DNA of 64,000 nucleotides, taken from the NCBI GenBank assembly GCA_001804125.1, contig MHFI01000036.1, positions 23,123 through 87,122 on the forward strand, read 5' to 3'. The notes beneath the pieces are model-generated. The model worked only from the letters and a program-made list of their open reading frames with translations, did not search any database and was not told where the DNA came from. Below are positions 9,993-33,344 of the stretch, piece by piece. Positions within the stretch are counted from its first letter, which is position 1. Each line of letters starts with the position of its first letter. The position numbers and the translations under genes are program-made. Origin of the DNA: Omnitrophica bacterium RIFCSPHIGHO2_02_FULL_51_18 (GTDB lineage Bacteria > Omnitrophota > Gorgyraeia > 2-02-FULL-51-18).

Positions 9993-10027
9993 GGGACACC
10001 CATTTTCCAATGGAAAATGGGTGTCCC
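9993..10027. repeat. REP-like perfect palindrome GGGACACCCATTTTCCAATGGAAAATGGGTGTCCC.
   Basis: 35-bp perfect hairpin with a plus-strand T-tract after it. One of three copies. Confidence 0.8.
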
Positions 10028-10049
10028 TTTTTGTGACTGTCACTCCCCT

Positions 10050-10088
10050 ATCTTGGCTGTCCTCGGCGGCTTCCTTGAGCATATCCCG
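10050..10088 (-). pseudogene. 39-bp remnant of an antitoxin gene (38/39 identity to 11353-11391 inside the relB-like antitoxin).
   Basis: Direct sequence identity: atcttggctgtcctcggcggcttcyttgagcatatcccg. Encodes ...IRDMLKEAAEDSQD on the minus strand. Confidence 0.55.
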
Positions 10089-10120
10089 TCGGATAATTTA
10101 TTTTTAAGGTCCACCTTGAG

Positions 10121-10525
10121 TCACTTTAAAATATTCAAAAATTCTGCCGGGGAGACGATCTTAAAATCTAGCCGCGGCGGAATTGTTTTTAAATCCAGAT
10201 CTCCTGTAACAATGTGACTTGCCTTTGCGCCCACAGCGCAGGCGATGAATTTGTCGTCACCGGGATCCCGCGAGATGGGTTGGGATAATCTTTGGTCGGA
10301 GATCATATAACAAATCTCCGGAAGAAGGGTTGGCCAGTCACGCTCAACAATGGGGCTCGTGCCTTTTTTACTGAATCTATCAATCACCTTAAGATACTCC
10401 TCATAAATGGACGGCGTTATGCACGCGGTAAACTTGACATCAAGCCAGGCATCAACAATACGGCCCGGGATTCCGCCAAAATAGATCCCTGAGATAAGGA
10501 CATTGGTGTCTAAAACGACTCTCAC
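10121..10525 (-). CDS. PIN-domain toxin (second copy, same family as 9309-9713).
   Basis: MRVVLDTNVLISGIYFGG... Overlaps the antitoxin by 4 bp. Confidence 0.75.
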   Translation of the reverse strand: MRVVLDTNVLISGIYFGGIPGRIVDAWLDVKFTACITPSIYEEYLKVIDRFSKKGTSPIVERDWPTLLPEICYMISDQRLSQPISRDPGDDKFIACAVGAKASHIVTGDLDLKTIPPRLDFKIVSPAEFLNILK

Positions 10526-10800
10526 TTTGATTCGGTTCTCACCTTACGAATGGCTTCTTTAACATCAGCCGGAGTGAGCCCTGCCTTCCTAGCCCAGGCT
10601 CTCGACTCTTTGACTAATTTTTTAGCTCTTTCAAGAGCGGGACGCTCGATCTTCTTTAGGATCACAGTGTCTTTCTCCCCCAGGACGATAAACTTCTCCC
10701 CTTGAGTGAGATGAAGCTTAAGCCGAATCGTCTGAGGTAACACTACCTGCCCTTTGGATGAAAGCATTGTAACTTCAAGGTGTTTCATGGATTCCTCCAT
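10522..10800 (-). CDS. AbrB/MazE-type (SpoVT-AbrB fold) antitoxin.
   Basis: SSKGQVVLPQTIRLKLHLTQGEKFIV swapped-hairpin motif. Confidence 0.65.
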   Translation of the reverse strand: MEESMKHLEVTMLSSKGQVVLPQTIRLKLHLTQGEKFIVLGEKDTVILKKIERPALERAKKLVKESRAWARKAGLTPADVKEAIRKVRTESK

Positions 10801-10864
10801 TTCTTACTGGTAAGAATACCATACCGGATGCTAAAATTCAAGTTTTTCTCTGGCTGGATTTGTG

Positions 10865-10911
10865 TAGAAAGTCAGTGGATTCGATGCGAGCGATGTCAAT
10901 ATTTAGGGACT
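10865..10911. repeat. Copy R1 of the 46-bp motif GGATTCGAKGYGAGCGATGTCAATATTYAGGGACTGRCCCCTAACC.
   Basis: 42/46 identical to 13668-13712. Contains TTGACA on the minus strand. Confidence 0.6.
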
Positions 10912-11002
10912 GGCCCCTAACCCACGTTTTTTAAGTTTTTGACAGAACGCCATTCCCCTCTTTCGTAGGAATCGAGCACCTTCGTTTTCTATACCTTCAT
11001 AC

Positions 11003-11263
11003 TTAGAGATTTTTGTAGGAGCCTTTTCTATTTTTTACCAAGAGGATATGAATTTGTTTTTCCTTTGTGTTTGGAGAATAGAGGATTCGGTAGTCCCCCT
11101 GCTGCACTCGGTATAGATTGTCTTTACCGGAGATTTTCTTGGTGCCGCTTGGAAATGGATTCTTAGAGAGGTCTTGGAAAACCTCTTTTATTTTTTTGAC
11201 ATCATAGGCTGGAATCTTATCGAGATCTTTGAAAATCTTTTTCTCATAAAAGATTTGGTACAT
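11003..11263 (-). CDS. RelE/ParE-family toxin.
   Basis: 86 aa ...LYRVQQGDYRILYSPNTKEKQIHILLVKNRK. Start overlaps the antitoxin stop. Confidence 0.7.
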   Translation of the reverse strand: MYQIFYEKKIFKDLDKIPAYDVKKIKEVFQDLSKNPFPSGTKKISGKDNLYRVQQGDYRILYSPNTKEKQIHILLVKNRKGSYKNL

Positions 11264-11514
11264 TACCGAATATTTCTCTTGGAGAGGTATTGATCAAACT
11301 CTTTTTGAGAGGCAAACTCGGCGGTTTTAAGCCTACCGCGGGCCATGGAAATATCTTGGCTGTCCTCGGCGGCTTCTTTGAGCATATCCCGGATGGCTTT
11401 GGCAATAAAGAAGTTCATTTTGATACCGTGATTTTCACAGTATACGGATAATTTATTTTTAAGATCCACTGGAATCCTGGCGGCCAAAAAAACTTGTTGG
11501 GCATGAACGGCCAT
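11263..11514 (-). CDS. Antitoxin partner of RelE (RelB/DinJ or RHH-like).
   Basis: 83 aa. Position and 1-bp overlap with the toxin. Confidence 0.55.
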   Translation of the reverse strand: MAVHAQQVFLAARIPVDLKNKLSVYCENHGIKMNFFIAKAIRDMLKEAAEDSQDISMARGRLKTAEFASQKEFDQYLSKRNIR

Positions 11515-11589
11515 TGCGTATCTCCTTTGTTATATTATGATATAAAGATATATCATATTATCGTTCGCTTGTCAATACATCCATGGTGT

Positions 11590-11771
11590 TTTTTAATTCA
11601 GGGGACACTATACATAATTCAGACTCGCACAACCCCCTGCCTTTTCTTCGGTCCCGGCTTTGCCTTCTTCAAAGGCCTCTTTTTTAATTCAGGGGACACT
11701 ATACATAATTCAGACTCGCACAACCCCCTGCCTTTTCTTCGGTCCCGGCTTTGCCTTCTTCAAAGGCCTCT
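11590..11771. repeat. Tandem 91-bp direct duplication (2 units) covering the last 20 codons of the RAYT gene, its stop and the REP-like terminal sequence.
   Basis: Units 11590-11680 and 11681-11771 are identical by eye. Confidence 0.85.
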
Positions 11772-12438
11772 TGATCAGCCTTTCCAGCTTTTCAACGAAG
11801 CTCCCGTCTCCGAGCGGCCTTCCCGTCTTTGCGTACTTGTCCAGCATATCAGATTCTTTATCTATGCCTGATCTTAGAAAATTGTTCCAATCACGAATTT
11901 CAAGATCCAAGAAACACCTCGAGAGTATGGGATCGGAGCTTCCTAAGACATGCGCCGCAGCACTCGACCATTTATAATCGTGTGCGTTTTTAGCTATTCC
12001 TGCCTTCACCGGATTATTCTCTACATAGCGTACGGCGGCATAAAGGTAATTTTCATCCATCGGAAAACTTGAAAATCGTCCTTGAAACAGATACCCTCTC
12101 CACCCTCCTCTAAAATTTATCATCCGCGAGTACAATCGGTGAGTTTCTGCAAAGGCTCTGCAAAAGGTCTCCTTATCCGATGGCACAGCCACAAAATGAA
12201 CATGGGTGTCCATTAGACACCAAGCCCAAATACTGACTTCGTTGATCTTAAGATGTTTTTGTAGGATATTCAGATAGGCAGATTTGTCCTCATCCGAAAA
12301 GAACACAGGCTGATTTCTGTTCCCTCGCTGAATGACATGATGGGGAATGTTTTCTGCGACGACACGCGCTATACGAGCCATACCTTGGGATATTACTCGC
12401 AGGAGGACGATTGGTCAATAATTAAGTATAGTGTCCCC
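11601..12438. mobile_element. RAYT/IS200-like element bounded by 13-bp perfect inverted repeats GGGGACACTATAC.
   Basis: IRs at 11601-11613 (and the duplicate 11692-11704) and at 12426-12438 (reverse complement). Encloses the Y1 transposase gene. Confidence 0.65.
11710..12381 (-). CDS. REP-associated tyrosine transposase / IS200-like Y1 (HuH) transposase.
   Basis: HuH motif HVHFVAV and a downstream catalytic Tyr region (YxxxY). 223 aa. Confidence 0.8.
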   Translation of the reverse strand: MARIARVVAENIPHHVIQRGNRNQPVFFSDEDKSAYLNILQKHLKINEVSIWAWCLMDTHVHFVAVPSDKETFCRAFAETHRLYSRMINFRGGWRGYLFQGRFSSFPMDENYLYAAVRYVENNPVKAGIAKNAHDYKWSSAAAHVLGSSDPILSRCFLDLEIRDWNNFLRSGIDKESDMLDKYAKTGRPLGDGSFVEKLERLIKRPLKKAKPGPKKRQGVVRV

Positions 12439-12448
12439 GAAATCGAAG

Positions 12449-12742
12449 TTAAGCTGCTCTTAGAGCTTCTAGGATCGCATCGGGACGCTTGGCGGCAATG
12501 GCTAAAAGTGCGCGCGCAGCTCCTTCGGGATAAGTTCGTCCCTGTTCCCAATTCCGCAAAGTTGCGGGGCTCACGCCGATAAAACGAGCAAATTCAGATT
12601 GGGATACATGGAGTTTTCTCCGTACCGCCTTCAGTCGGATGGGTTCAAACCGAATCACCCGCCCGGGTTTGTGTTTACCCGCACGAATAGCCCGCGCCTG
12701 GTTAATGCTCCTAAGCAGGTTTTTAAAACCTAGTTCTTTCAT
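12449..12742 (-). CDS. higA: HigA-like HTH (XRE family) antitoxin.
   Basis: HTH: LHVSQSEFARFIGVSPATLRNWEQGR. Lies downstream of the toxin, which is the HigBA gene order. Confidence 0.65.
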   Translation of the reverse strand: MKELGFKNLLRSINQARAIRAGKHKPGRVIRFEPIRLKAVRRKLHVSQSEFARFIGVSPATLRNWEQGRTYPEGAARALLAIAAKRPDAILEALRAA

Positions 12743-13059
12743 AATACCCCCTTTACCACGTAAGCGCTCAAAACTTTCAATTGGTGTTTGGTCAAATCCC
12801 CTTGTTTGCTCTTTTCATAGGCATAGATCATGTAAAGCCGCTCGGTTGAGAAACAATAGTAAATCACTCGGATGCCGCCGCTTTTGCCTTTTCCCTTTTT
12901 GCCCGAGCGCCACCGGATCTTACGCAAACCTCGCCCGCCGGGAATAAGATCGCCGGCCTTCGGATTTCCCGCCAACGCGGTTTGCAAACCCCAGTACTCT
13001 TTCTCACTCAATAATTCACAAATAAGCTTCGTGAATACCGTGGTTTCTATAAATTGCAT
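12739..13059 (-). CDS. higB: HigB/RelE-family toxin.
   Basis: 106 aa with GGIRVIYY..ERLYMIYAYEKSKQGDLT. The toxin-first gene order is typical of HigBA. Confidence 0.65.
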   Translation of the reverse strand: MQFIETTVFTKLICELLSEKEYWGLQTALAGNPKAGDLIPGGRGLRKIRWRSGKKGKGKSGGIRVIYYCFSTERLYMIYAYEKSKQGDLTKHQLKVLSAYVVKGVL

Positions 13060-13074
13060 CTTAGCCGTCTAAAG

Positions 13075-13101
13075 CAAGTATACGCTATCAGCGTATACTT
13101 G
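13075..13101. promoter_or_regulatory. Candidate HigBA operator: 12-bp perfect inverted repeat CAAGTATACGCT-atc-AGCGTATACTTG.
   Basis: Lies 16 bp upstream of the higB start. Confidence 0.5.
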
Positions 13102-13138
13102 TCAAGTGAGGTTGTAATTTCATATATAAACCATAATG

Positions 13139-13372
13139 CTAAGTCGTGTACTGCGCGGCGTAAGTATCAAGCAGTGTTCGAATGATTTTTTGATAGGGGG
13201 CGTGATATTTACGCGCCGTTTTCTTAAAGAACCGAACACTTGATTTGCTCAACACCATCGTAACTTTCACCGGCTCTTCCTTGAAGGCCAGCTTCTCAGG
13301 CGGAGGCAGAAAGTCCTTGATGATACGAAGCTTACCTATGGGTTCATTCGTGTATTTTATTTTGTGATTCAT
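13139..13372 (-). CDS. brnA: BrnA-type antitoxin.
   Basis: FLPPPEKL...VTMVLSKSSVRFFKKTARKYHAPYQKIIRTLLDTYA matches the BrnA family pattern. Confidence 0.6.
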   Translation of the reverse strand: MNHKIKYTNEPIGKLRIIKDFLPPPEKLAFKEEPVKVTMVLSKSSVRFFKKTARKYHAPYQKIIRTLLDTYAAQYTT

Positions 13373-13447
13373 AAATCCCCTTTCCTCTGCGCCAATAACC
13401 GGCTCCAAAGATACGGATTGCGTTCGCCCGATAAGTGAAACGTACTG

Positions 13448-13504
13448 TTAAAACACCCTCTCCGACCTGGCCGAAACATCAGGTTCCCACTCAAAATGCG
13501 TCAT
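13448..13504 (-). pseudogene. Truncated brnT toxin remnant (18 codons, MTHFEWEPDVSARSERVF-stop).
   Basis: My own translation. The MxFEWD..K start is characteristic of BrnT (DUF497). No ORF of 60 aa or more is present where brnT should lie. Confidence 0.4.
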
Positions 13505-13544
13505 AATCTCACAACTAATGAAGAGTATACATCATATATGGTAA

Positions 13545-13566
13545 TTTTACCATATAAATTTATGGA
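13545..13566. promoter_or_regulatory. Candidate BrnTA operator palindrome TATATGGTA-n4-TACCATATA, next to a TATACT -10-like box.
   Basis: 9-bp perfect inverted repeat directly upstream of the brnT remnant. Confidence 0.45.
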
Positions 13567-13667
13567 ACTTAATATGGACTGATCGGCTTGGGATGACCCT
13601 TAACTCTTTCCTTTGAAAGAAAACTCGAGATGACAGAGGAGGACCTGTGGCGACTAAACTATTGCGC

Positions 13668-13712
13668 GGATTCGAGGTGAGCGATGTCAATATTCAGGGA
13701 CTGACCCCTAAC
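13668..13712. repeat. Copy R2 of the 46-bp GGATTCGA...GGGACTGACCCCTAACC motif.
   Basis: See R1. Located at the island boundary, just downstream of the SBBP gene stop. Confidence 0.6.
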
Positions 13713-13720
13713 CGTTTTCT

Positions 13721-16030
13721 CTAATTCCCGGCGATATGGAGCGGGTCGGAAATGCTTGCGCCCTCCGATAATTCCACGACAAAGCCTTCGTCGCCGCCGC
13801 TGTAGGTACCTTGGAAGGCAGTGACGGGCGTCTCCCAATCGGTGGTATTCGGAGAATACCCGCCGGCGTATATTTCGCTGCCATCGACAGCCAGAGATCT
13901 GACATAGTCGTTACCCACACCGCCTAACCAGTGGCCCCCGTTAAGAGTAGGAGTAGTGCCGTCAGCGATTTTCACGACGAAGCCTTCAGCACCGCCGCTG
14001 TGGTTACTGCCCGACTGGAAAGGGACACTCTCCCAACTGGTGGTACTGCCAGAATACCCGCCAGCGTATATTTCATCGCCGTTGACAGCCAGATCGTAAA
14101 TTGCATCACCACCTGTGCCGCCCAACCACTGGCGCCAGTTAAGAATGGGGGCAGCGCCGTCAGCGATCTCCACAACAAACCCCTCCCAGCTGCCGCTGAA
14201 ATTACCCTGAGAGGGGTTAACAGGTGTCTCCCAACCAGCGGAATTGTCAGAATATCCGCCGGCGTATATTTCATCGCCGTTAACAGCCAGGGCTCGAACT
14301 GAATCACTGCCTGTGCCACCTAACCACTGGCGCCAGTTAAGAACGGGCCAGGGACTGCCCTCAACAATCTCCGCGACAAAACCTTCGCGGCCGCCGCTGT
14401 AGTCACCCCCGTAGCTTGTGAAATTATCCCAATTAGTGGATTGGGAAGAATACCCACCGGCGTATATTTCATCACCGTTAACAGCCAGTGCATCAATAGA
14501 ATCATCACCACCTGAGCCGCCCAACCATTGGGCCCATGCAATAGCGGGTGTAGCGCCGTCAGCGATTTCCACGACAAAGCCTTCCATTCCTCCGGAACCC
14601 CCGTAGTCGCCTCGGAAGTAGGTTTCACCCCCCCACGTGTCGCTACCTTCAGAATCCCCGCCGGCGTATATTTCATCGCCGTTAACAGCCAGGGCTTGAA
14701 CTGAATCTTGACCTGCGCCGCCTAACCACAGGCCCCAGCCAATGGTGGGGACAGCGCCGTCAGCGATTTCCACGACAAAGCCTTCGTTGATACCGTTGAA
14801 TGGCTCTTGGAAGGCGGGACCATCCCAACTGTTGTCACTGGTCGAAGACCCGCCGGCATAAATTTCATCGCCGTTGACGGCCAGGGCGTAAACTCCATCA
14901 TTACCCGATCCACCCAACCACTGACCCCAGTTAATTGTGGGGGTAGCGCCGTCTGCGATCTCCACGACAAAGCCTTCGGTGCCGCTGCTGTGGGTGCCCT
15001 TAAAGGAGGCGAGACTATCCCAATTGGAAGCGTTACCGGACCACCCGCCGGCATAAATTTCATCGCCGTTGACGGCCAGGGCGTAAACTCCATCATTACC
15101 CGATCCACCCAACCACTGACCCCACTGCAAGGTCGGGTCAATGAGGAGTGGGTAGGCGGACAAAGGCTCGTGGATGGAAAGAAGGAGTGTTCGTTCATCC
15201 AGAAGGACGGGGTCTACTTTTTTCTGCGCGCCGTCCGCCGTCCAGTAGAGAAAGGGTTTGATGCGGGCCACAAGCTCATCTTTTTCAATAGCGACCCCTT
15301 TGGGGAGCGCTTTCCGCACTGTGTCGATGAGTTCCCGCCTTTTTTTGGTGTCTCTCGGGTCAATGCCCTGGATATTGACGATCGCCTTTTGGTAGATGCC
15401 CACAGAGCCGTCTTCGTCTTTTTTGAATTTGAATATCTTGGGATAAGAAGCTCTCCCGGCCGAAAGAGACCAGACATACTGAGTCACGTCATTGTGGTTC
15501 GGCCTTTTGGCGTAGAGCCATTCATTAAGAACTACTTCCCCTTCCCCTGTCCTGCCCTGGGCGTAGGCAATGGCGTCCGTGGGGCGCTCGTAAACCAGCC
15601 AGTCGCGGTTAGGGGCGCTAAAAACTCTTTGAGTGAATGGCTGGCCGGTATTCTTGAGGGTAAGGTCAAAAGAGACTGTTTCCATGCCAAGTTCAAGCAG
15701 GGTGCGTTGTTTCACGGTGGTGGAGAGAGTGTCGAATAAGGTGCGGATTTTAACGAAAACATTTTTTTGTCCGGGCGCTCTCCTAATGGCGAGCTCGCTC
15801 GTAAAGCCCGTGCCGCTGGGACCCTGCTCTATTCTTTCCGCGGAGACGATACGGCCATTCATTAGGCTTTGTTTTTCGTCCATGAGGCGTAGGGCGGATA
15901 CGAGTTCCTGTGAGAGCCCCGGCAGTGACAAAGGCAGGAGCGCCTCAGGCCCCGCCGCGACAAGATTTGCCTTGACGATGAGTAGCGAACCGAGCGCCAC
16001 TAGCCACAAGACAGCTTTTCTTTTATGCAT
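13721..16030 (-). CDS. Secreted SBBP beta-propeller repeat protein (8 repeats), a candidate pilus-associated adhesin.
   Basis: Signal peptide. Repeated WGQWLGGSGNDGVYALAVNGDEIYAGG units. Lies at the distal end of the T4P gene cluster. Confidence 0.7.
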   Translation of the reverse strand: MHKRKAVLWLVALGSLLIVKANLVAAGPEALLPLSLPGLSQELVSALRLMDEKQSLMNGRIVSAERIEQGPSGTGFTSELAIRRAPGQKNVFVKIRTLFDTLSTTVKQRTLLELGMETVSFDLTLKNTGQPFTQRVFSAPNRDWLVYERPTDAIAYAQGRTGEGEVVLNEWLYAKRPNHNDVTQYVWSLSAGRASYPKIFKFKKDEDGSVGIYQKAIVNIQGIDPRDTKKRRELIDTVRKALPKGVAIEKDELVARIKPFLYWTADGAQKKVDPVLLDERTLLLSIHEPLSAYPLLIDPTLQWGQWLGGSGNDGVYALAVNGDEIYAGGWSGNASNWDSLASFKGTHSSGTEGFVVEIADGATPTINWGQWLGGSGNDGVYALAVNGDEIYAGGSSTSDNSWDGPAFQEPFNGINEGFVVEIADGAVPTIGWGLWLGGAGQDSVQALAVNGDEIYAGGDSEGSDTWGGETYFRGDYGGSGGMEGFVVEIADGATPAIAWAQWLGGSGGDDSIDALAVNGDEIYAGGYSSQSTNWDNFTSYGGDYSGGREGFVAEIVEGSPWPVLNWRQWLGGTGSDSVRALAVNGDEIYAGGYSDNSAGWETPVNPSQGNFSGSWEGFVVEIADGAAPILNWRQWLGGTGGDAIYDLAVNGDEIYAGGYSGSTTSWESVPFQSGSNHSGGAEGFVVKIADGTTPTLNGGHWLGGVGNDYVRSLAVDGSEIYAGGYSPNTTDWETPVTAFQGTYSGGDEGFVVELSEGASISDPLHIAGN

Positions 16031-16043
16031 GGCTCCCCTTTCT

Positions 16044-16079
16044 TTCCCCTTAATAATAGATCACGGGGACACCCATTTT
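16044..16079. repeat. REP-like perfect palindrome GGGGACACCCATTTTCCATTGGAAAATGGGTGTCCC.
   Basis: 36-bp hairpin in the spacer between two co-directional genes. May act as a terminator. Confidence 0.8.
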
Positions 16080-16106
16080 CCATTGGAAAATGGGTGTCCC
16101 TTCTTG

Positions 16107-16871
16107 TTAAGAATAGTTCAGCAGGTACCCGCAGTAATATTTATCGGTCGTGCCATTATAGGTCAGCGTGATGATATCGACCTTGCCCGCGCCCGAGAGC
16201 GTGGGGGCCGCCGCGCCGCCGGGCCACGAGACATTGCCCGGCCAGGTGATGGTCCACGAACCCGCGCCGCCCTGCCGTATCGTGAGGAGGTACCGTCCGC
16301 CGTCGACCGGGTTCGAAAGCGTAACCGTGCGGTTACCCGGGATCGTGACGTACTGAACATTCCCGTTATTCCAATTCACCTCGACCGGCTCCGTATCGCC
16401 CAACGTGTGTTTAGTCGAGTTGTACTGCCCCTCGACCAGAATGTTGCCGCTAAATGAGCTGGCGGCGGATCTGACATTGAAGTTGTCCATGACCCAGCCG
16501 TTTGTGCCGTCTCCTCCCCAGAACCTCAAATTTTGTGTTGCCCCCGCGTCACCGTCGAACCCAACGTCAAACGCCCCCGCGCCGCCCCCGAATTCTCCCA
16601 TAAGAATTGTGTCGCCGTCGGAGGAGGCGATTCTCACATTTCCCGAGACATCGAGTTTGCTGGCCGGCGTCGTCGTCCCGATTCCGACGTTGCCGGTCGA
16701 GGTGGCGAGCACTGTCTTGTCGGTTGAGGAGAGTTCTTTATAATTTCCGTAGGGCGAGGGGTAATAGGCGGTGATTTCAACCTCTTCGGCGAGGGCGCCG
16801 GGCGCGATGAAAATGAAAGACAGTAAGAGCGCCGCCGGTGCGTTAAGAAAAAGACGGTTTATTTTTATCAT
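16107..16871 (-). CDS. Secreted Gly/Thr-rich protein with a tail-fibre-like NVGIGTTTPASKLDV motif.
   Basis: Signal peptide MIKINRLFLNAPAALLLSFIFIAPGALA. No enzymatic motifs. Confidence 0.45.
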   Translation of the reverse strand: MIKINRLFLNAPAALLLSFIFIAPGALAEEVEITAYYPSPYGNYKELSSTDKTVLATSTGNVGIGTTTPASKLDVSGNVRIASSDGDTILMGEFGGGAGAFDVGFDGDAGATQNLRFWGGDGTNGWVMDNFNVRSAASSFSGNILVEGQYNSTKHTLGDTEPVEVNWNNGNVQYVTIPGNRTVTLSNPVDGGRYLLTIRQGGAGSWTITWPGNVSWPGGAAAPTLSGAGKVDIITLTYNGTTDKYYCGYLLNYS

Positions 16872-16893
16872 TGGAAATACCTCCTTAATCTTT

Positions 16894-18764: not shown

Positions 18765-18790
18765 TGGCAAAAAACTCGGTAATGAATTCT

Positions 18791-26398: not shown

Positions 26399-26440
26399 GT
26401 TACTGAGGTTTCATTAAATAGTTGCTCCTCAGTAAGTGGA

Positions 26441-26809
26441 TCAACGGTCGCTCTCCAGCACAAATTCAGGTTTGACGATGGGCTCTGAAGGAAACGGAAA
26501 CGTGGCTACTTCGTAAACTCCGGCCAGGGTCCTTTTGACAGCCTGGCCGGCGCCGTGAATAGGTCCCCAGGTGATGGCGGCAAGAAAGTTCTGTTCGCTC
26601 GCCACCGATTCCACTCCTTTCGGCAGATCCAACCAGCCGAACGCAACGTTGGACAACCCGCGGCCAAGTTTTTTGCCCGCACCGCTTCCGTAGTCCTCCC
26701 TGGCGATGTCACTCGGGGAGTTTTCAGTCATCGCGCACACGGAACCCGCCGCGACCGTAAAAACGACCAGCGCCGCAAAAAAGCTTTTATGAATAAGATG
26801 CCGGCTCAT
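26441..26809 (-). CDS. Small secreted protein resembling the exosortase-associated TIGR04073 family.
   Basis: Signal peptide. GRGLSNVAFGWLDLPKG motif. Confidence 0.4.
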   Translation of the reverse strand: MSRHLIHKSFFAALVVFTVAAGSVCAMTENSPSDIAREDYGSGAGKKLGRGLSNVAFGWLDLPKGVESVASEQNFLAAITWGPIHGAGQAVKRTLAGVYEVATFPFPSEPIVKPEFVLESDR

Positions 26810-26831
26810 GATTTCCTCCTATGTTTTAAGT

Positions 26832-27428: not shown

Positions 27429-27453
27429 AAATCTCTTTTTTCAATAACCTATT

Positions 27454-28104: not shown

Positions 28105-29092
28105 ATTTATACCGGTATTTGCCGGGATCCAGGAACACTCTTTTTTGCCAAACCCCTTCTTCCGTCCTCCACAGAAGCGATTCCTGGGATAGGCTCCAGC
28201 GGTTGAAGTCGCCCACCAGATGCACTTCCCTGGCCTCGTGCGCTTTTAACACAAAATCCCGGATGCGGTTCGACGGAAGCTCGAAGCGGGCACCGTTTGC
28301 ATTTAAGTCGGCGGGAGTGTCGGCCGTGATGCGCTCAAGGAGCTCCCGGACGGCCGCCCGATAGTCCTCGGCGCCTTTGGAAAGGCGATCGTAATGCAAA
28401 ACCGACCGACCCTTGGCCTGGGATTCGCGAATCGCGACGGTTTGACGGATCCCGTTTTTCAAAATGTGCTCTCCAAACGCGTTTGCGATTTCTCCCAGCA
28501 TGTGTTTGGCAAATCTCGTGCGCAAATCGACAAGCGTCGGCAAGGCATATACGTGCGGCGTGTGCTGGAGCTTTACTCGAATCAGCTCAATCATGCTGAG
28601 GAGTTTGCTCACTCCCAGGAGCGAAAACGAACCCAGTTCAATGGGCACAACAACGGTTTGCGAGGCCCTCAGCGCATTGAAGGTCAGAAAACCCAGGCTG
28701 GGCGGGCAGTCAATCACGGCGAATTCATAAGGAAATGAAAGCGTCTGAAGCGCCCGGTAAAGTTTTGAAACGGATTCATCCTTGTGGGTCAGCTCCTGTT
28801 CAATCGTGCTTAACAGAAGATGTGAAGGGGCCAAATCAAGCATCTCCTCTACCGGCAAGATCACGTCCTCCAGAAAATGTTTTCTTTTTTCGTTCTGCTC
28901 AGTCAGCACATTGTAGATGGAGTTCTCGACTTTGTCGCTGCGAATACCCAAACCCGACGTCGCATGGGCCTGAGGATCGAGGTCAATCAGGAGGGTTTTT
29001 TTGCCCAGGTGGGCGAGGCTTGCCGCGATATTGATCGCGGAAGTAGTCTTACCGCACCCTCCCTTTTGATTGGACAACGCAATCACATGCAT
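28010..29092 (-). CDS. ParA/MinD-family ATPase with a C-terminal CBM48 (AMPK-beta-like glycogen-binding) domain.
   Basis: Deviant Walker A NQKGGCGKTT. C-terminus VHLVGDFNRW...GKYRYKFVVDGLWTTDPFN...GGLDSVI matches CBM48. Confidence 0.7.
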   Translation of the reverse strand: MHVIALSNQKGGCGKTTSAINIAASLAHLGKKTLLIDLDPQAHATSGLGIRSDKVENSIYNVLTEQNEKRKHFLEDVILPVEEMLDLAPSHLLLSTIEQELTHKDESVSKLYRALQTLSFPYEFAVIDCPPSLGFLTFNALRASQTVVVPIELGSFSLLGVSKLLSMIELIRVKLQHTPHVYALPTLVDLRTRFAKHMLGEIANAFGEHILKNGIRQTVAIRESQAKGRSVLHYDRLSKGAEDYRAAVRELLERITADTPADLNANGARFELPSNRIRDFVLKAHEAREVHLVGDFNRWSLSQESLLWRTEEGVWQKRVFLDPGKYRYKFVVDGLWTTDPFNDHLEPNPYGGLDSVIEIE

Positions 29093-29093
29093 T

Positions 29094-29942
29094 TTAGATA
29101 GGGACGACCTGCAAGTCTCGGATAAAAACGGTGTCTCCGGGCTTGTTTTCAGTGTCTTTGGAGCCGACGTCAAAACGCAGGCTCGCCACATTTTCCTCGT
29201 CAAACTTACCTTCGGTGTGGTAGATCGGAATTTCCGCCCGTTGCCAGTCGGTCGTCAAAGAGGCCGGAAAAGGATACGTGCGGCCCTTCGGAAAAGCGGA
29301 GAGATTGCCGCTGTCCTTTATGGAAAAGGCGATGTTTTCTCCGCCTCGGCCGCCCTTGGCGTAAAACACGATTTTGGCCCCCTTGAGGTTTAGCGCCGAA
29401 CGGAAGAAAAGATTGGCCCTTGCAAAAGGGGCCACGGAGCTGTTCACCAGCGTGAGGCTCGACTTGTCCTTGGAGCTCTGAAGCTTGGCCGCGCCCTCGA
29501 ATATAAAATCCTGCATGGAGAACGTATCACCGTATTTAATCTGCCACGCACTTTCTGACGACGCGTCCGTGGAAACCGGGTTCTCGTCCTCCGCCGGCGC
29601 GCGCGAAGCGGAATAAAGGCGGGCGTGTTTCTCGTCAATCACTTTAACGTCAACAAAAACACGCTTCGCGGAAAACAAGCTGAAGGCCGCCAAAAGCATC
29701 GCGACTGAACTGATGACCCAGGGCAGGGTCGAAGAGAGCCTGGGTTTTTCAATGACTTTGATGACAAGCGGCTCGTCGTATCTTTTGAGTTTCTCGGGGC
29801 CTGAGAAATAGATGTCGGCCAGTTGCTGCTGCGTCATCTCATAGGGACTTTTCTTGGCGGGAGCCCCCGGATCCCCGGATCCTTCCTTCTTCGAGAATTC
29901 CTTGGCGCTGGCTTTGAGCGACTCGATCAATTTACTCATCAA
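29094..29942 (-). CDS. Membrane-anchored protein with a C-terminal beta-rich (possible carbohydrate-binding) domain. Candidate ParA partner.
   Basis: Single transmembrane helix LPWVISSVAMLLAAFSLF. Directly abuts the ParA-like gene. Confidence 0.35.
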   Translation of the reverse strand: MMSKLIESLKASAKEFSKKEGSGDPGAPAKKSPYEMTQQQLADIYFSGPEKLKRYDEPLVIKVIEKPRLSSTLPWVISSVAMLLAAFSLFSAKRVFVDVKVIDEKHARLYSASRAPAEDENPVSTDASSESAWQIKYGDTFSMQDFIFEGAAKLQSSKDKSSLTLVNSSVAPFARANLFFRSALNLKGAKIVFYAKGGRGGENIAFSIKDSGNLSAFPKGRTYPFPASLTTDWQRAEIPIYHTEGKFDEENVASLRFDVGSKDTENKPGDTVFIRDLQVVPI

Positions 29943-30171
29943 TCAGATGGTTCTCCCTTAAAACGGTCTCTGTTTTCAAGATGGCTTTTTTTAATTCCAA
30001 AAAATGGGACACGTTGATCGCCAGGCCTTTGCCGGTGGGAATTTTCTCCTCCCCTTCCTTGAGGGTCGTGTACACACGTAAGTCCACGAGGTCATAGCCT
30101 TTGAATTCGTTGATTTGGACACGCACTTCTTCAAACTTATTTTTGGGAAAGCTGGCGACCAACTGGTTCAT
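29932..30171 (-). CDS. PC4-like (YdbC-type) single-stranded DNA-binding small protein.
   Basis: EVRVQINEFKGYDLVDLRVY...PTGKGLAINVSHFLELKKAI pattern. Confidence 0.45.
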   Translation of the reverse strand: MNQLVASFPKNKFEEVRVQINEFKGYDLVDLRVYTTLKEGEEKIPTGKGLAINVSHFLELKKAILKTETVLRENHLIDE

Positions 30172-31304
30172 GATGGAACCCTCTCCTCGTTTAGAATTTC
30201 AACAGCTTCTTTAAACTCCGGGGTTTGTGGCTCCTGGCCTTTCCGGAATTCTTCCAGTTTTTTGATCCTCTGGTCCAGTTTTTTAAAGCTCTTGTCGCTC
30301 ACATCGTCGTATTTTTCCTGGGTCTTGCCCAGCAATTCGCCCACGTCTACGAAGCGTTTCTTGAAATTTTCATAGTCATCCAAAAATTGTGTGATGAGCT
30401 TGAGAATTTCATAGGTCGATTTCTTAAAGAAAAAATTATCATAAGCCTGGCGGATGATGGACAGTATTCCGTACAGCGAGTAGGGTGAAGCCAAAAGTAC
30501 TTTTTGGGACAGCGCTTCATCCATAAGCTCGGGCGCCGTCCGGTGAATAAAACCGAAGATCTGCTCGTTCGGGATAAAGAGGATCACGTAGTCCAGTGTT
30601 TGTTCTTCCGGGTTGATGTAGTCTCTTTTTTTTAGTTCCCGGATCCTGTTTTTTACGTCTTTTATAAAATCGCCGAGAGTGCGCTCTTTTTCATTTTTGT
30701 CTTCGGTGTCCATAAACGCCTGGTAGTTGTTCAGAGGGAATTTGACGTCCATATAAACTTTGTGCTGGTCCGGCAGCGGAAAAACAAAATCCGGGCGTGT
30801 GGAAACAGTCTCCTGCGTTTTTTCTTTGAAATAATGAAAGCCTTCGCTGAAGCCCGCGGCGCGTAAAATATCTTCGGCCATCTTTTGGCCCCACTGCCCT
30901 CTGAGCTGGTTGTTGCCGATGACAGCGCCTAGTTTCTGGGTGGTTTCGGAAAGGCTGCGGGTCGCAACCGCGGTTTGCGCAAGCTTTTCGTCGAGACTTG
31001 CAAATTTATAAATCCTGTCCGCTTCAAATTCGCGGATCAGCTTTGTGATGCGCTCGAGCTCTCTTGTCAGATGGTCCACATGATGCTCAACCGCCTGTTT
31101 ATTCTGCTCGAGGAGCGCCTTCGACTTAAACTGCTCATCGATGAAGCGCTCATTGGCAGTCTGCACGAATTTTTCAGACTCTTGCTTCAAACGGGATTCA
31201 ATTTCGAGGAAGTGTTTTTGGATTCGCGATTGAATACAAAGAAGAAAAAAAACAATGACGGCGCCGATCACCACACAGGTCAGCGCGACCAGGATCGGAT
31301 TCAT
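30168..31304 (-). CDS. rmuC: DNA recombination protein RmuC.
   Basis: N-terminal transmembrane helix, long coiled coil, RmuC C-terminal domain. Confidence 0.75.
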   Translation of the reverse strand: MNPILVALTCVVIGAVIVFFLLCIQSRIQKHFLEIESRLKQESEKFVQTANERFIDEQFKSKALLEQNKQAVEHHVDHLTRELERITKLIREFEADRIYKFASLDEKLAQTAVATRSLSETTQKLGAVIGNNQLRGQWGQKMAEDILRAAGFSEGFHYFKEKTQETVSTRPDFVFPLPDQHKVYMDVKFPLNNYQAFMDTEDKNEKERTLGDFIKDVKNRIRELKKRDYINPEEQTLDYVILFIPNEQIFGFIHRTAPELMDEALSQKVLLASPYSLYGILSIIRQAYDNFFFKKSTYEILKLITQFLDDYENFKKRFVDVGELLGKTQEKYDDVSDKSFKKLDQRIKKLEEFRKGQEPQTPEFKEAVEILNEERVPS

Positions 31305-31493
31305 TTAGAACTTTTTATTACGGCTGCGGCTGCTTCTGGCTTTGCGGCGCTTGATTTCGCTGGGTTTCTCGTAATGCTTGCGGGCCTTCAGCATTTTTAA
31401 AATGCCTTCGCGCTCTATTTTTTTCTTGAAACGCCTGAGCGCCTTTTCAAGCGGCTCGTTGGGCCCCACTTCGACTTTTGACATGAAACTCAA
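31305..31493 (-). CDS. rpsU: 30S ribosomal protein S21.
   Basis: 62 aa, basic: KALRRFKKKIEREGIL...KRRKARSS. Confidence 0.85.
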   Translation of the reverse strand: MSFMSKVEVGPNEPLEKALRRFKKKIEREGILKMLKARKHYEKPSEIKRRKARSSRSRNKKF

Positions 31494-31531
31494 TTACTCC
31501 TTTCTACAACACCCTCAAGGACTTAGGTAAA

Positions 31532-32569
31532 TTACGCCTGGATTATAGTCTTATTCGAATTCAGTGTCAACAGATTCAGCCTTCTGTGGGCGACAAGGGA
31601 GTTTGGGAGGTGAATTTGAAGCGTTTTTTTGGTTTCAGAATGAAGGATATCGAGAATCGCTGAAATATGAGAAAGCTCGATGCGTTTTAGATGGCCTTGG
31701 ATTTTTTGAATCGCCTGCACAATCACTTCACGCTGAAGGGCCAAGGGATATTTTTTAAGCTTTTCCACGCGAAGCGTGACACCCCCCTGTTTTTTGACTC
31801 CGCGGCACCGCTTAAAAACCTTAAGCGCTGTTTTTTCCAAAAATTCTTGAATGTCGCGGCTGATGATCTGCAGATTCGCCAGGGACTTTTTGATGCCGGG
31901 GTTGTAGTCGCGCGCGAGGATTTTTAATAAATCGTGCCTTACCCGGTTTCTGGCAAACATTCGATCCGTATTGGTCTTGTCCGTACAGAAATAAACCCCG
32001 TTCCTTTTTAAAAATAATTTTAAATCCCGCTTTTCCACATCCAGTAATGGCCGGATGAGCTTAAACCGGCCTTGATTTCTCTTGGCGGGAATGCCGCACA
32101 AACCCTTGACCCCCGATCCGCGCAGGATACGAAGCAGCACGGTCTCGGCCTGGTCATCCAGCGTGTGAGCGGTGACGATGCAACGGCTTTTGGTTTTGAA
32201 GGCCACTTTTTCTAAAAATTCATAGCGCTTGATGCGGCCTGTTTCCTCAAGGGATCGTTTCAGGCGCTTGGCTTCTCTTTTTAGATTGATTTTTACGGAA
32301 TAAAAAGGAAGCGAAAGTTCCCGGCAGAGCTGCTTGACCCTGGTCTCGTGTTCCCCGGATGCTTTTGGGACAAAGCCGTGATTCACGTGCGCCACCGTGA
32401 GCTTAAGAGAATATTTTCGTCTCAACAGAACGAAAAGTTCCATGAGGGCGACGGAGTCCGGGCCGCCTGAGACGGCCAGGACCAGGGAATCATTTTTCTT
32501 GAATAAACCATGCCGCTGGTTGCAGATCTCGAGGGATTGGATCAGATTCTTGGCGGATTTCATGTTCAC
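31532..32569 (-). CDS. tilS: tRNA(Ile)-lysidine synthetase TilS.
   Basis: PP-loop SGGPDS. 345 aa. Confidence 0.85.
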   Translation of the reverse strand: MNMKSAKNLIQSLEICNQRHGLFKKNDSLVLAVSGGPDSVALMELFVLLRRKYSLKLTVAHVNHGFVPKASGEHETRVKQLCRELSLPFYSVKINLKREAKRLKRSLEETGRIKRYEFLEKVAFKTKSRCIVTAHTLDDQAETVLLRILRGSGVKGLCGIPAKRNQGRFKLIRPLLDVEKRDLKLFLKRNGVYFCTDKTNTDRMFARNRVRHDLLKILARDYNPGIKKSLANLQIISRDIQEFLEKTALKVFKRCRGVKKQGGVTLRVEKLKKYPLALQREVIVQAIQKIQGHLKRIELSHISAILDILHSETKKTLQIHLPNSLVAHRRLNLLTLNSNKTIIQA

Positions 32570-32652
32570 GTCATCCTGAGCGCCGGAGGCGCGAAGGATC
32601 CCGTTTTTGAGATTCTTCGTCCGCCAAAGAACATGGCGGACTCAGAATGACA
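32570..32652. repeat. Copy C of the GTCATCCTGAG...CTCAGAATGAC double-hairpin repeat.
   Basis: gtcatcctgag[cgccggaggcg]cgaaggatc CCGTTTTTGA gattcttcg[tccgcc...ggcgga]ctcagaatgac. Abuts the tilS start. Confidence 0.7.
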
Positions 32653-32669
32653 GTAATGGGGTGGGATAA

Positions 32670-33197
32670 CTAATAGACAAAAATATAAGTCGCTTTGCTT
32701 GAGGCCGGATCATATTCCACATCCACTTCCGTGCCGGCGGCCAGCGACTTCATGTCCCGGTCTTTTTCACCGTCCGTGATGTCGGTGGTTTCATCCACCT
32801 TCACAGTGAGAATCTTTTGGTTTGTGTCGTTTTCGGTCTCACCGTAAAGCTTGACGGTGATCGTTTTAGCGGTTTCGTCCATCGTCGTGACTTCGCCCGA
32901 AATAAACTCAAGGTTTTCCGTATTGACGATTTCCTCGGAGGGCGCCGCACTTTCAGCGGGGGCGGGCGTCTCCGCCGCGGATTGCGCCGGCGCTTCGGCC
33001 GGGACTGCGGGCGGAGTTGCGGCTTCCGGTTGGGAAGCGGCAGGTTCTTGAGGCGCCGCCGGTTCCGGAGACGGGACGGCCGTCTCCTCCGAAACCACGG
33101 GTTCCGACGCGGCCGGCGTCTGGGCCTCTTCGGCATAAAGGTTATAAGCCGTTAAATAAAAAGAAGATAGGAAAGCAACAAGCAACCATTTTTTCAT
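32670..33197 (-). CDS. Secreted protein with a Pro/Ala/Glu-rich linker and a small C-terminal beta domain.
   Basis: Signal peptide. Low-complexity PEPAAPQEPAAS region. Confidence 0.45.
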   Translation of the reverse strand: MKKWLLVAFLSSFYLTAYNLYAEEAQTPAASEPVVSEETAVPSPEPAAPQEPAASQPEAATPPAVPAEAPAQSAAETPAPAESAAPSEEIVNTENLEFISGEVTTMDETAKTITVKLYGETENDTNQKILTVKVDETTDITDGEKDRDMKSLAAGTEVDVEYDPASSKATYIFVY

Positions 33198-33292
33198 ATT
33201 GTGCGGCTCCAGTAAATTTTAATTTGAAAGGGCATTATACCAAGTTTCCGCCAAATGTCAAAGATGCATGATTATGACTGGAATAAGTAAAA

Positions 33293-33344
33293 GGGGACAC
33301 CCATTTATTAATAAGTTACGATTCATAAATAAATGGGTGTCCCC
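33293..33344. repeat. REP-like palindrome GGGGACACCCATTTATT-loop-AATAAATGGGTGTCCCC with A/T tracts on both sides (bidirectional terminator-like).
   Basis: 17-bp perfect arms. Located just downstream of the stop of the 33383-35740 gene. Confidence 0.75.

What the first reader, a model, noticed from the sequence alone, without database searches (positions are those of the whole stretch)
9993..33344. REP-like perfect palindromes sharing the GGGGACAC core with the RAYT transposase inverted repeats
Three near-identical palindromes (9993-10027, 16044-16079, 33293-33344; arms GGGGACACCCATTTTCC / GGAAAATGGGTGTCCCC) sit in intergenic positions downstream of genes. The copy at 33293 has flanking A- and T-tracts like a bidirectional terminator. 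The only transposase in the window, a Y1/HuH REP-associated tyrosine transposase at 11710-12381, is bounded by 13-bp perfect inverted repeats GGGGACACTATAC that share the GGGGACAC core. This is the arrangement expected for a REP/RAYT (REPIN) system, in which a domesticated or single-copy RAYT maintains a dispersed family of palindromes. Here the palindromes appear as unusually long perfect singlets rather than short doublets.
Basis: partly seen in the sequence, partly recalled or inferred. Interest (0 to 1): 0.6.

Follow-up and report, generated by a model that had tools for sequence, protein, structure and literature searches.

The report
Hairpin repeats of a Y1 nuclease
Three long perfect DNA hairpins in this Omnitrophota genome are inverted copies of the end-repeat of a tyrosine (HUH/Y1) transposase-like gene, but the best-matching gene lies outside the window, and the Y1 gene inside it is a separate, already described "TIRYT" element.

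Summary
All six arms carry GGGACACCCATTT. The Y1 gene at 11710-12381 is flanked by GGGGACACTATAC inverted repeats.

The gene is not a canonical RAYT: it scores 49 bits on NCBIfam, below the cut-off of 80. It is a TIRYT/"TIRtron" (Di Nocera 2013; TnpAY1 subclass 2.1, Quentin 2018). Its repeat, AATTC-N-GGGGACAC-NNN-ACTTAATT, recurs around five homologues, does not fold, and shares only 7-8 nt with the palindromes.

The palindrome arms match, over 15-16 nt, the terminal inverted repeats of a second Y1 gene that is 30% identical to the first. That gene was found on metagenome contigs from the same samples, one of them contiguous with window sequence. Its flank, GTGACNGTCAC-N4-5-GGGACA-NN-CATTTT, is conserved around orthologues in two other Omnitrophota contig sets.

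The palindromes are therefore best read as gene-less inverted dimers of that end-repeat, analogous to REPINs, sitting in terminator positions. Copy number is low: six exact copies were detected across the window and the MAG contigs the scans reached. Mobilisation by the enzyme is inferred, not shown. This is a new member of a known kind.

The parts
9992..10028 (.). Palindrome copy 1. Two GGGACACCCATTTTCCA arms (17-bp stem, 3-nt loop). It lies between the stop of the PIN toxin gene (10121) and the promoter of the next toxin-antitoxin operon.
   Evidence: -19.5 kcal/mol, z -6.8; promoter TTGACA-17-TATTAT at 9975-9947(-)
10033..10043 (.). Mini-palindrome GTGACTGTCAC, 5 nt from the foot of copy 1. 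The same composite (GTGACNGTCAC, a short A/T spacer, then GGGACACCC) flanks the second Y1 gene and its orthologues.
   Evidence: it is the only GTGACNGTCAC in the window; composite seen in L048, L051, L052, L057, L025
16066..16100 (.). Palindrome copy 2, 94% identical to copy 1 over 49 nt including flanks. It lies 6 nt after the stop of gene 16107-16871(-) and 35 nt before the ATG of gene 13721-16030(-).
   Evidence: D10; -18.8 kcal/mol, z -7.5
33289..33348 (.). Palindrome copy 3: AAAAGGGGACACCCATTTATT...AATAAATGGGTGTCCCCTTTT. It is shaped like a bidirectional terminator. It lies 39 nt after the stop of gene 33383-35740(-) and 28 nt before a 12/12 sigma-70-like promoter.
   Evidence: I4; -21.8 kcal/mol, z -9.1; the same 50-nt element occurs in three other places in the same MAG (L020 twice, L023)
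11710..12381 (-). TIRYT-type Y1/HUH gene of 223 aa (OGW82472.1). Motifs: HUH = THVH, then LFQGRF, with the catalytic Tyr in RYVENNP.
12420..12443 (.). 5' terminal inverted repeat of the TIRtron (ATTTCGGGGACACTATACTTAATT in gene orientation). It abuts a promoter-like site at 12418-12390.
   Evidence: (I8/I9)
11687..11710 (.). 3' terminal inverted repeat of the TIRtron. It overlaps the stop codon.
11589..11679 (.). Extra copy from a perfect 91-bp tandem duplication (ORF 3' end plus 3' repeat, with a second repeat copy at 11596-11619). It is polymorphic among strains.
   Evidence: (D5)

Best explanation
The window holds two related but separate things.

(A) A TIRtron. This is a single TIRYT-type Y1/HUH gene (TnpAY1 subclass 2.1, Bertels RAYT group 1). 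It is bounded by the family-typical terminal inverted repeat AATTC-N-GGGGACAC-NNN-ACTTAATT.

(B) Three copies of a low-copy family of perfect palindromes. Their arms, GGGACACCCATTT(TCC), are the terminal inverted repeat of a second, sister Y1 gene ('Y1-2', 30% identical). That gene was found in metagenome assemblies from the same samples but lies outside the window.

Each palindrome is structurally the two ends of such an element joined head to head without the gene. That makes it an analogue of a REPIN or of a 'double-foot REP'.

Inferred mechanism: on single-stranded DNA the arms snap into a 17-22-bp hairpin. The Y1 enzyme recognises the conserved foot (GGGACA-NN-CAT, with the nearby GTGACNGTCAC) and cuts and rejoins at the adjacent A/T tract. 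This occasionally copies the hairpin to new intergenic sites.

The hairpins lie between a stop codon and the next promoter, and copy 3 has A/T tracts on both sides. They probably double as transcription terminators or insulators.

Shown: the sequence identities, the positions and the conservation of the flanks. Inferred: binding, cleavage, mobility and terminator activity.
For: 1. Arm-to-repeat identity. The Y1-2 gene (L048 12716-13354; L051 3065-3706) is preceded by GTGACTGTCAC-AGAAA-GGGACACCCAAT-ATG. It ends in AAAATGGGTGTCCCC followed about 13 nt later by GTGACAGTCAC. Its 3' repeat therefore equals the arms of copies 1 and 2 over 15-16 nt.
2. Conserved flank. Orthologues at 55% and 62% identity in two other Omnitrophota contig sets sit in the same place, after the Mg-chelatase/ComM-like gene. 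They carry GTGACAGTCAC-T4-5-GGGACA(CC/TG/GG)CATTTT at their ends: both ends in L052, the 3' end only in L057.
3. Independent recovery. L025 (60% GC) was retrieved by the palindrome pattern alone and also has GTGACAGTCAC next to the foot.
4. Dispersal in the same MAG. L020 and L023 are contigs of the same MAG. They add 3 exact-stem copies plus variants whose change is mirrored in both arms, keeping the stem perfect (GGGGACAGCCAT/ATGGCTGTCCCC and GGGGACAGGCAT...), and a palindrome with TIRYT-like arms (GGGACAGTTCACTTATTAATT).
5. Link to the window genome. L048 is 99.97% identical to window 22060-10511 and then runs through an IS into Y1-2. L016 places the same IS and a palindrome half-site directly against the end of the window's TIRtron.
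6. The window's TIRYT repeat recurs around homologues (both ends in L028, L032, L038 and L040; upstream only in L043). The central triplet differs between loci but is the same at both ends: TAT, ATC, GAT, ACG, ATC. This matches the published GGGGWSAS motif.
7. The two Y1 families are homologous over their full length (hhalign probability 99.9%).
8. All three window copies lie between a stop codon and the next gene's start; copies 1 and 3 are followed by strong promoter matches (11/12, 12/12) and copy 2 only by a weak one (9/12).
Against: - No enzyme-DNA interaction or transposition event has been observed.
- Y1-2 is not in the window or in the deposited MAG proteins (ENA assemblies only). Its physical link to the window runs through a multi-copy IS in short-read assemblies and could be chimeric.
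- Copy number is low. There are none in the 20 kb around the Y1-2 orthologues in L052 and L057, so proliferation is not a general property of the family.
- A G-rich foot flanked by A/T tracts is what any bidirectional terminator looks like, so part of the resemblance (GGGG plus tracts) may be functional convergence.
- Copies 1 and 2 lack a T-tract on the coding strand, which weakens the terminator role for them.
- Because both Y1 genes share GGGGACAC, the window's TIRYT could also act on the palindromes.
Confidence: 0.55

Rival explanations
1. One reading: the window's own Y1 gene (11710-12381) is the enzyme that maintains the palindromes, recognising the shared GGGGACAC foot.
For: The 7-8-nt foot sits at the outer end of both the gene's repeats and the palindrome arms. 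GGGGWSAS is the conserved part of TIRYT repeats. Copies 1 and 2 lie 1.7 and 3.7 kb from the gene. In L016 a palindrome half-site abuts the TIRtron end. One palindrome in the same MAG has TIRYT-like arms, GGGACAGTTCACTTATTAATT.
Against: Beyond the foot the sequences differ: TAT-ACTTAATT against CCA-TTTTCC. A different Y1 gene matches over 15-16 nt plus the flanking GTGACNGTCAC. Four of five TIRYT homologue loci show no such palindromes within about 10 kb on either side, and L040 has only GGGGACGG-footed ones.
Confidence: 0.2
2. The palindromes are ordinary intrinsic (bidirectional) terminators or RNA-stability hairpins that spread by local duplication. Their resemblance to Y1 end-repeats is coincidental, or the Y1 genes merely landed inside such hairpins.
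For: All three lie just after a stop codon, and copies 1 and 3 just before a strong promoter match. Copy 3 and the L020/L023 copies have A4/T4 flanks, two of them bracket a tRNA-Leu gene, and one sits between convergent genes. The terminator scan picks up copies 1 and 2 on the + strand.
Against: Terminators are not expected to keep an identical 13-nt stem across organisms of 41-60% GC. They are also not expected to flank Y1 genes in inverted orientation in three Omnitrophota contig sets and, as GGACACCCATTT, in Gammaproteobacteria. Copies 1 and 2 have no T-tract on the strand that is transcribed. Rfam has no match.
Confidence: 0.15
3. The palindromes are operators for a dimeric DNA-binding regulator, for example an antitoxin or a Y1 protein acting as a repressor, rather than substrates for DNA cleavage.
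For: Copies 1 and 3 end 17 and 28 nt upstream of strong -35 boxes. The TIRYT 5' repeat directly abuts a -35 box in the window, L040 and L043.
Against: The stems are far longer (17-22 bp) than typical operators. The downstream genes are unrelated: a toxin-antitoxin pair, a repeat protein and a 175-aa protein. No candidate regulator was identified.
Confidence: 0.07

Closest known systems
TIRtron / TIRYT (Di Nocera et al. 2013, PMC3733652), equivalent to TnpAY1 subclass 2.1 (Quentin et al. 2018, PMC6006769) and RAYT group 1 (Bertels et al. 2017, PMC5581495)
   Same: A RAYT-like Y1/HUH gene of about 220-240 aa, bounded by non-hairpin terminal inverted repeats carrying GGGGWSAS (here GGGGACAC). It is low-copy. 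Some genomes hold moderately abundant families of these repeats arranged as singles, dimers or clusters.
   Different: This example is from Omnitrophota, and no C-terminal HTH domain was detected by Pfam. The dispersed dimers match the repeats of a sister gene rather than those of the window's gene. Quentin et al. reported no REP-like sequences for subclass 2.1.
REP / RAYT (REPtron) and REPINs (Nunvar 2010; Bertels & Rainey 2011; Ton-Hoang 2012; structure 4er8)
   Same: A domesticated-looking Y1 nuclease whose flanking repeats also occur dispersed in intergenic DNA. Inverted doublets form long hairpins. Copies lie downstream of genes, and some orthologues hold a conserved chromosomal position next to the ComM-like gene.
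   Different: There is no GT[AG]G foot and the single arms are not themselves palindromic. Copy number is in the single digits to tens rather than hundreds. Both proteins score below the RAYT equivalog cut-off (49 and 70 bits against 80).
IS200/IS605 TnpA elements
   Same: The same HUH/Y1 catalytic fold family (Pfam Y1_Tnp). Action on single-stranded hairpin DNA is presumed.
   Different: The motif is Y-x3-NP, not Y-x3-Q. The protein is longer. It has terminal inverted repeats instead of subterminal hairpins. There is no tnpB partner, and the gene was seen in only one genomic context.
REP-targeting insertion sequences
   Same: An IS256-like IS (333-aa transposase) was found three times exactly at the A/T tract at the foot of these repeats (L016, L048, L051).
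   Different: It is a different IS family and was seen only on metagenome contigs. Target specificity is inferred from three junctions.

Membership tests
RAYT / REPtron | The protein reaches the NCBIfam REP_Tyr_transpos (NF047646) cut-off of 80 bits | tested here: not met
   Window gene 49.4 bits; Y1-2 70.4 bits
RAYT / REPtron | HUH motif, catalytic Tyr and class-2 Y-x3-NP signature | tested here: met
   THVH at residues 59-62 and RYVENNP at 118-124. H60, H62, Y119, N123 and P124 are invariant across 22 homologues. The best PDB hit of the family profile is TnpA-REP 4er8, E=3e-6.
RAYT / REPtron | The gene is flanked by REPs, i.e. self-folding hairpins with a 5' GT[AG]G foot, in inverted orientation | tested here: not met
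   The flanks at 11590-11625 and 12414-12449 have a folding free energy of 0 and carry no GTAG
RAYT / REPtron | The flanking repeats belong to the same family as an abundant dispersed repeat (typically more than 100 per genome) | tested here: not met
   The window gene shares only 7-8 nt with the palindromes. Six exact-stem palindromes were found across the window and the other MAG contigs reached by the scan. The whole genome was not available.
TIRYT / TIRtron (TnpAY1 subclass 2.1) | A RAYT-like gene bounded by terminal inverted repeats that are not hairpins and carry GGGGWSAS | tested here: met
   GGGGACAC at both ends. The same architecture appears in L028, L032, L038 and L040, and upstream only in L043. 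The motif is defined.
TIRYT / TIRtron (TnpAY1 subclass 2.1) | Subclass signature: about 238 aa, HuH NHVH, FQ or W[EQ], and Y[IV]E.NP-type Tyr motif | tested here: met
   223 aa with THVH, LFQGRF and YVENNP. The family consensus is NHVH, LWQGRF and YVERNP (compared with Table 1). The authors' own HMMs could not be run.
TIRYT / TIRtron (TnpAY1 subclass 2.1) | C-terminal HTH-like domain (Bac_DnaA_C, HTH_23 or HTH_28) | tested here: inconclusive
   Pfam reports only Y1_Tnp at residues 11-123. A conserved C-terminal region is present (W165, GRPLG 187-191) but is not assigned to any family.
IS200/IS605 | TnpA of about 150 aa with Y-x3-Q, subterminal hairpins, and multiple near-identical copies | tested here: not met
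   The motif is YVENNP, the protein is 223 aa, and the ends are inverted repeats rather than hairpins. All 7 contigs carrying the exact protein share one context.
REPIN-like non-autonomous element of the second Y1 gene | Two inverted copies of the gene's own end-repeat, separated by a short spacer, dispersed in the same genome | tested here: met
   The arms equal the Y1-2 3' repeat over 15-16 nt. Copies occur in the window (3) and in L020/L023 of the same MAG. Assignment of Y1-2 to the same genome rests on L048.
REPIN-like non-autonomous element of the second Y1 gene | Mobilisation or cleavage by the cognate Y1 enzyme | not testable with these tools
   This needs biochemistry or population sequencing
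Intrinsic terminator | GC-rich stem followed by a U-tract on the transcribed strand, downstream of a gene | tested here: inconclusive
   Copy 3 has T-tracts on both strands. Copies 1 and 2 have one only on the + strand, which is antisense to all neighbouring genes.

The most novel reading that the evidence does not exclude
GGGACA-NN-CAT(TTT), often paired with GTGACNGTCAC, may be a deeply conserved recognition module of TIRYT-type Y1 nucleases across phyla. It is seen in Omnitrophota Y1-2, in gammaproteobacterial subclass 2.3 genes next to purA, and possibly in Clostridia. If so, subclasses 2.1 and 2.3, published as lacking REPs, would have cognate repeat families after all. Those repeats would be co-opted as bidirectional terminators and used as landing pads by an IS256-like element.
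Probability: 0.35. Interest if true: 0.55.

Novelty: new member of a known kind. Interest (0 to 1): 0.4.

Why it matters
TIRYT/subclass 2.1 is the largest and least understood branch of the RAYT-like Y1 nucleases, and no substrate has been tested for any member. This locus offers a concrete, short, conserved candidate substrate: GGGACACCCATTT hairpins plus GTGACNGTCAC. It also offers two sister enzymes with distinguishable end-repeats in one population, which makes specificity experiments straightforward. It further suggests that the reported absence of REP-like partners for subclasses 2.1 and 2.3 may reflect search criteria (a GTAG foot and self-folding single repeats) rather than biology. 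For genome annotation, it shows that these hairpins are not just generic terminators.

Tried and rejected
- Literature search for the motif as a string returned only unrelated primer sequences.
- Rfam on the whole window found only one tRNA, so the palindromes match no known RNA family.
- Single-sequence PDB searches for both Y1 proteins found nothing. Only the family profile reached 4er8.
- Viral-contig scans for either Y1 family yielded 2 and 0 relatives and were of no use.
- The genome-collection scan did not contain the source genome. It gave 11 stretches in gammaproteobacterial and Clostridia MAGs.
- Walking along the source contig beyond the window was limited to 10 kb (L033). No further copies were found there.
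- L013 at first looked as if it held a second TIRYT copy. That gene is the C-terminal fragment of the 769-aa repeat protein.
- The '116-aa' cluster member (P0126) is only an alternative gene call at the same locus.
- I considered the TIRYT repeats as hairpins and rejected it: they do not fold.
- I searched for degenerate palindrome copies in the window and found none.


Full report
**1. What is in the sequence**

The window holds three perfect palindromes:
- Copy 1: 9992-10028.
- Copy 2: 16066-16100.
- Copy 3: 33289-33348.

All six arms contain GGGACACCCATTT exactly. Allowing up to 2 mismatches gives 8 hits where 1.66 are expected. As single-stranded DNA the three fold at -19.5, -18.8 and -21.8 kcal/mol, with z-scores of -6.8 to -9.1.

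Copies 1 and 2 are 94% identical over 49 nt, including the flanks GATCAC... and ...TTYTTGT (D10). Copy 3 shares only the outer 13-14 nt and the TTTTGTG flank. It has A4 and T4 tracts and a different AT-rich interior. A relaxed search found no degenerate copies.

All genes in the region are on the minus strand. Each palindrome lies between the stop codon of one gene and the start of the next; copies 1 and 3 are followed by a strong promoter match:
- Copy 1 is followed by TTGACA-17-TATTAT at 9975-9947.
- Copy 3 is followed by a 12/12 promoter match at 33261-33234.
- Copy 2 is 6 nt after a stop codon and 35 nt before an ATG; only a weak (9/12) promoter match overlaps it.

**2. The Y1 gene in the window**

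ORF 11710-12381(-) encodes 223 aa. It hits Pfam Y1_Tnp at 35 bits. It scores only 49.4 bits against the NCBIfam RAYT model, whose cut-off is 80. It keeps the HUH motif (THVH) and the Tyr motif RYVENNP, both invariant in homologues.

Its ends are the inverted repeats 12420-12443 and 11687-11710, with the core GGGGACACTATAC. These repeats do not fold on their own (free energy 0).

The protein belongs to a very large family of about 220-aa proteins, with more than 6,400 hits, many from Omnitrophota and Rokubacteria. In homologue loci at 56-74% identity the gene is flanked by the same architecture, AATTC-N-GGGGACAC-NNN-ACTTAATT. This is seen at both ends in L028, L032, L038 and L040, and upstream only in L043. 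The upstream repeat sits about 50 nt before the ATG, and the downstream repeat overlaps or closely follows the stop codon. The central triplet differs between loci but is the same at both ends of each: TAT, ATC, GAT, ACG, ATC.

This is the published TIRtron/TIRYT class. Di Nocera et al. 2013 describe RAYT-like genes flanked by terminal inverted repeats that share GGGGWSAS. In some genomes they found moderately abundant families of these repeats, arranged as singles, dimers or clusters. Quentin et al. 2018 place most TIRYTs in TnpAY1 subclass 2.1 (median 238 aa; NHVH; FQ or W[EQ]). That subclass equals Bertels' RAYT group 1, and they report no REP for it.

The family profile is closer to E. coli TnpA-REP (4er8, E=3e-6) than to ISDra2 TnpA (E=0.1).

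**3. Source organism**

Exact look-ups identify the source as the MAG Omnitrophica bacterium RIFCSPHIGHO2_02_FULL_51_18. The Y1 protein is OGW82472.1, annotated as hypothetical.

**4. The better partner for the palindromes**

Contig L048 (ENA k141_2442114) is 99.97% identical to window 22060-10511. It then continues through an IS256-like IS into a second Y1 gene. Contig L051 holds the complete gene, 213 aa.

This 'Y1-2' is 30% identical to the window's protein. It scores 70 bits on the RAYT model. It is homologous over its full length to the TIRYT family (hhalign probability 99.9%).

Its flanks are:
- 5': GTGACTGTCAC-AGAAA-GGGACACCCAAT-ATG.
- 3': ...TTGAAAATGGGTGTCCCC-TCTTGTGTTTCTT-GTGACAGTCAC.

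The reverse complement of the 3' repeat, GGGGACACCCATTTTC, is identical to the arms of copies 1 and 2 over 15-16 nt. The GTGACNGTCAC mini-palindrome is also found 5 nt from the foot of copy 1, at 10033-10043, and nowhere else in the window.

Y1-2 homologues (133 hits; all source-given names but one generic 'bacterium' label are Omnitrophota) were examined in two other contig sets:
- L052-L056 (55% identical): GTGACAGTCAC-TTTTT-GGGACATGCATTTT at the 5' end and GTGACAGTCAC-TTTTT-GGGACACCCATTTT at the 3' end.
- L057 (62% identical): GTGACAGTCAC-TTTT-GGGACAGGCATTTT at the 3' end.

In both, the gene follows the Mg-chelatase/ComM-like gene. A conserved position of this kind is typical of vertically inherited RAYT-like genes.

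Locus L025 (60% GC) was retrieved by the palindrome pattern alone. It also has GTGACAGTCAC next to the foot. Y1-2 is not encoded in the window.

**5. Is the family dispersed?**

The genome-collection scan did not contain this genome.

The metagenome scan returned 8 stretches with GC from 41 to 60% and variable loops. Two of them, L020 and L023, proved to be other contigs of the same MAG. They carry three more exact-stem copies of the copy-3 type:
- Two bracket a tRNA-Leu gene.
- One abuts the stop of a minus-strand gene.

L023 also holds three variant palindromes:
- GGGGACAGCCATTTAA (lying between convergent genes) and GGGGACAGGCATAAAGG. The changes are mirrored in both arms, so the stems stay perfect.
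- AGGGACAGTTCACTTATTAATT, whose arms look like TIRYT-type repeats.

Four of the five long perfect hairpins in L023 begin with GGG(G)ACA[CG].

Further copies or half-sites appear next to IS elements in L016 and L051.

The family is therefore real and dispersed, but low-copy. Six exact-stem copies were detected in the parts of the MAG that could be searched, and three of those are in this window. No copies lie in the 10 kb beyond the right edge of the window. None lie within 20 kb of the Y1-2 orthologues in L052 and L057.

**6. Interpretation**

Each palindrome is the two ends of a Y1-2-type unit joined head to head without the gene. It is an inverted doublet of a non-palindromic 13-17-nt end motif. 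This is analogous to a REPIN or to Quentin's 'double-foot REP'.

By analogy with IS608 TnpA and E. coli TnpA-REP, I infer the following steps. These analogies rest on established knowledge, with the relevant papers listed.
- The hairpin forms on single-stranded DNA.
- The enzyme reads the conserved foot.
- It cuts and rejoins at the adjacent A/T tract.

None of these steps is shown here.

The position of the copies, and the A/T tracts of copy 3, argue that the hairpins also serve as terminators or insulators. Copies 1 and 2 lack a T-tract on the transcribed strand, so this is uncertain for them.

The window's TIRYT shares the GGGGACAC foot, so cross-recognition cannot be excluded.

**7. Wider pattern**

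This is a side observation that supports a link between Y1 genes and the motif. The genome scan hits in Pseudohongiella-like and other gammaproteobacterial MAGs read TTTAAAGGACACCCATTT...AAATGGGTGTCCTTTAAA.

In three contigs (L004, L006, L010) this palindrome lies 170-210 nt downstream of a Y1 gene: 364-374 aa in L004 and L006, next to purA; only the C-terminal end is held in L010. The full-length genes carry the exact subclass 2.3 signature (NHYH, WEGRF, YVDLNP) and have two half-sites upstream. One upstream site reads GGACACCCATTTTTCCAGCGGA, close to the window arm GGACACCCATTTTCCAATGGA.

Quentin et al. found no REP-like sequence for subclass 2.3.

**8. Verdict**

This is a new member of a known kind, namely TIRtrons and their end-repeat families, found in Omnitrophota. 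Interest is moderate, mainly because it supplies a well-defined candidate substrate for a large, biochemically untouched branch of Y1 nucleases.

Noticed in passing
window 11589-11770: A perfect 91-bp tandem duplication covers the last 61 nt of the TIRYT ORF, the 3' repeat and 7 nt of flank, with TT microhomology at the junction. It is polymorphic in the population: present in L048 and L049, absent in L012, L014, L015 and L047.
   Followed up: partly
L016 840-2000; L048 11570-12700; L051 1595-2700: An IS256-like IS sits in three different contexts. Its 333-aa transposase has a zinc finger and scores below the NCBIfam cut-off. Its ends read GGGGTTGGGTTAATTAAAT and GGGGTTGGATAAATAAAT. Each insertion is exactly at the A5/T5 tract beside a GGGACACCC foot or a GTGACNGTCAC. 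In L016 it abuts the window's TIRtron, with an AAAAA target duplication. This looks like a repeat-targeting IS.
   Followed up: partly
L051 329-1600: A palindrome copy at L051 ~1553-1590 is hemmed in by two different ISs. A 405-aa Transposase_mut (IS256-family) element cuts into its left foot, and the 333-aa IS sits at its right foot.
   Followed up: no
L004 3040-5460; L006 2080-5130; L010 1-673: Subclass 2.3-type Y1 genes (next to purA in L004 and L006; truncated by the contig end in L010) in gammaproteobacterial MAGs are followed by a GGACACCCATTT palindrome 170-210 nt downstream; L004 and L006 also show upstream half-sites and further clusters. The literature reports no REP-like partner for subclass 2.3.
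   Followed up: partly
window 10877-10922 and 13668-13713: A 46-nt repeat (91% identical) holds a small hairpin, TTAGGG..CCCTAA, followed by a TTGACA box. It lies in front of two toxin-antitoxin modules. A strain variant in L013 reads GGGGTCAG, which fits GGGGWSAS, so these may be degenerate solo TIRYT ends. Metagenome contigs break at this repeat.
   Followed up: no
window 9309-13408: A toxin-antitoxin island holds four modules (RHH-PIN, MazE-like/PIN, ParD-like/ParE and RelE-like/HTH) with the TIRtron in the middle. A 40-nt fragment of the antitoxin gene is repeated at 10049-10088 and 11352-11391.
   Followed up: no
window 13721-16030: A 769-aa protein with no family match is built of about seven repeats of roughly 198 nt (66 aa).
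   Followed up: no
L020 12431-12664: Two copies of the 60-nt copy-3-type palindrome bracket a tRNA-Leu(gag) gene in another contig of the same MAG.
   Followed up: partly
L040 5594-5639 and 7116-7152: In another Omnitrophota MAG (GCA_026387315.1), two long perfect palindromes with GGGGACGGTTCT arms lie within 5 kb of a TIRYT homologue. The foot differs from GGGGWSAS at one position.
   Followed up: no
L001, L007, L009: Clostridia/Eubacteriales MAG contigs also carry GGACACCCATTT...AAATGGGTGTCC palindromes. In L001 and L007 they are nested inside a second palindrome, GAGACAAA.../...TTTGTCTC. No Y1 gene was detected in the 8 kb held.
   Followed up: no
window 12200-12212: The HUH motif region of the TIRYT gene itself (MDTHVH = ATGGACACCCATGTTCAT) contains GGACACCCAT. 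The same holds in the L032 homologue. This is probably coincidence.
   Followed up: no
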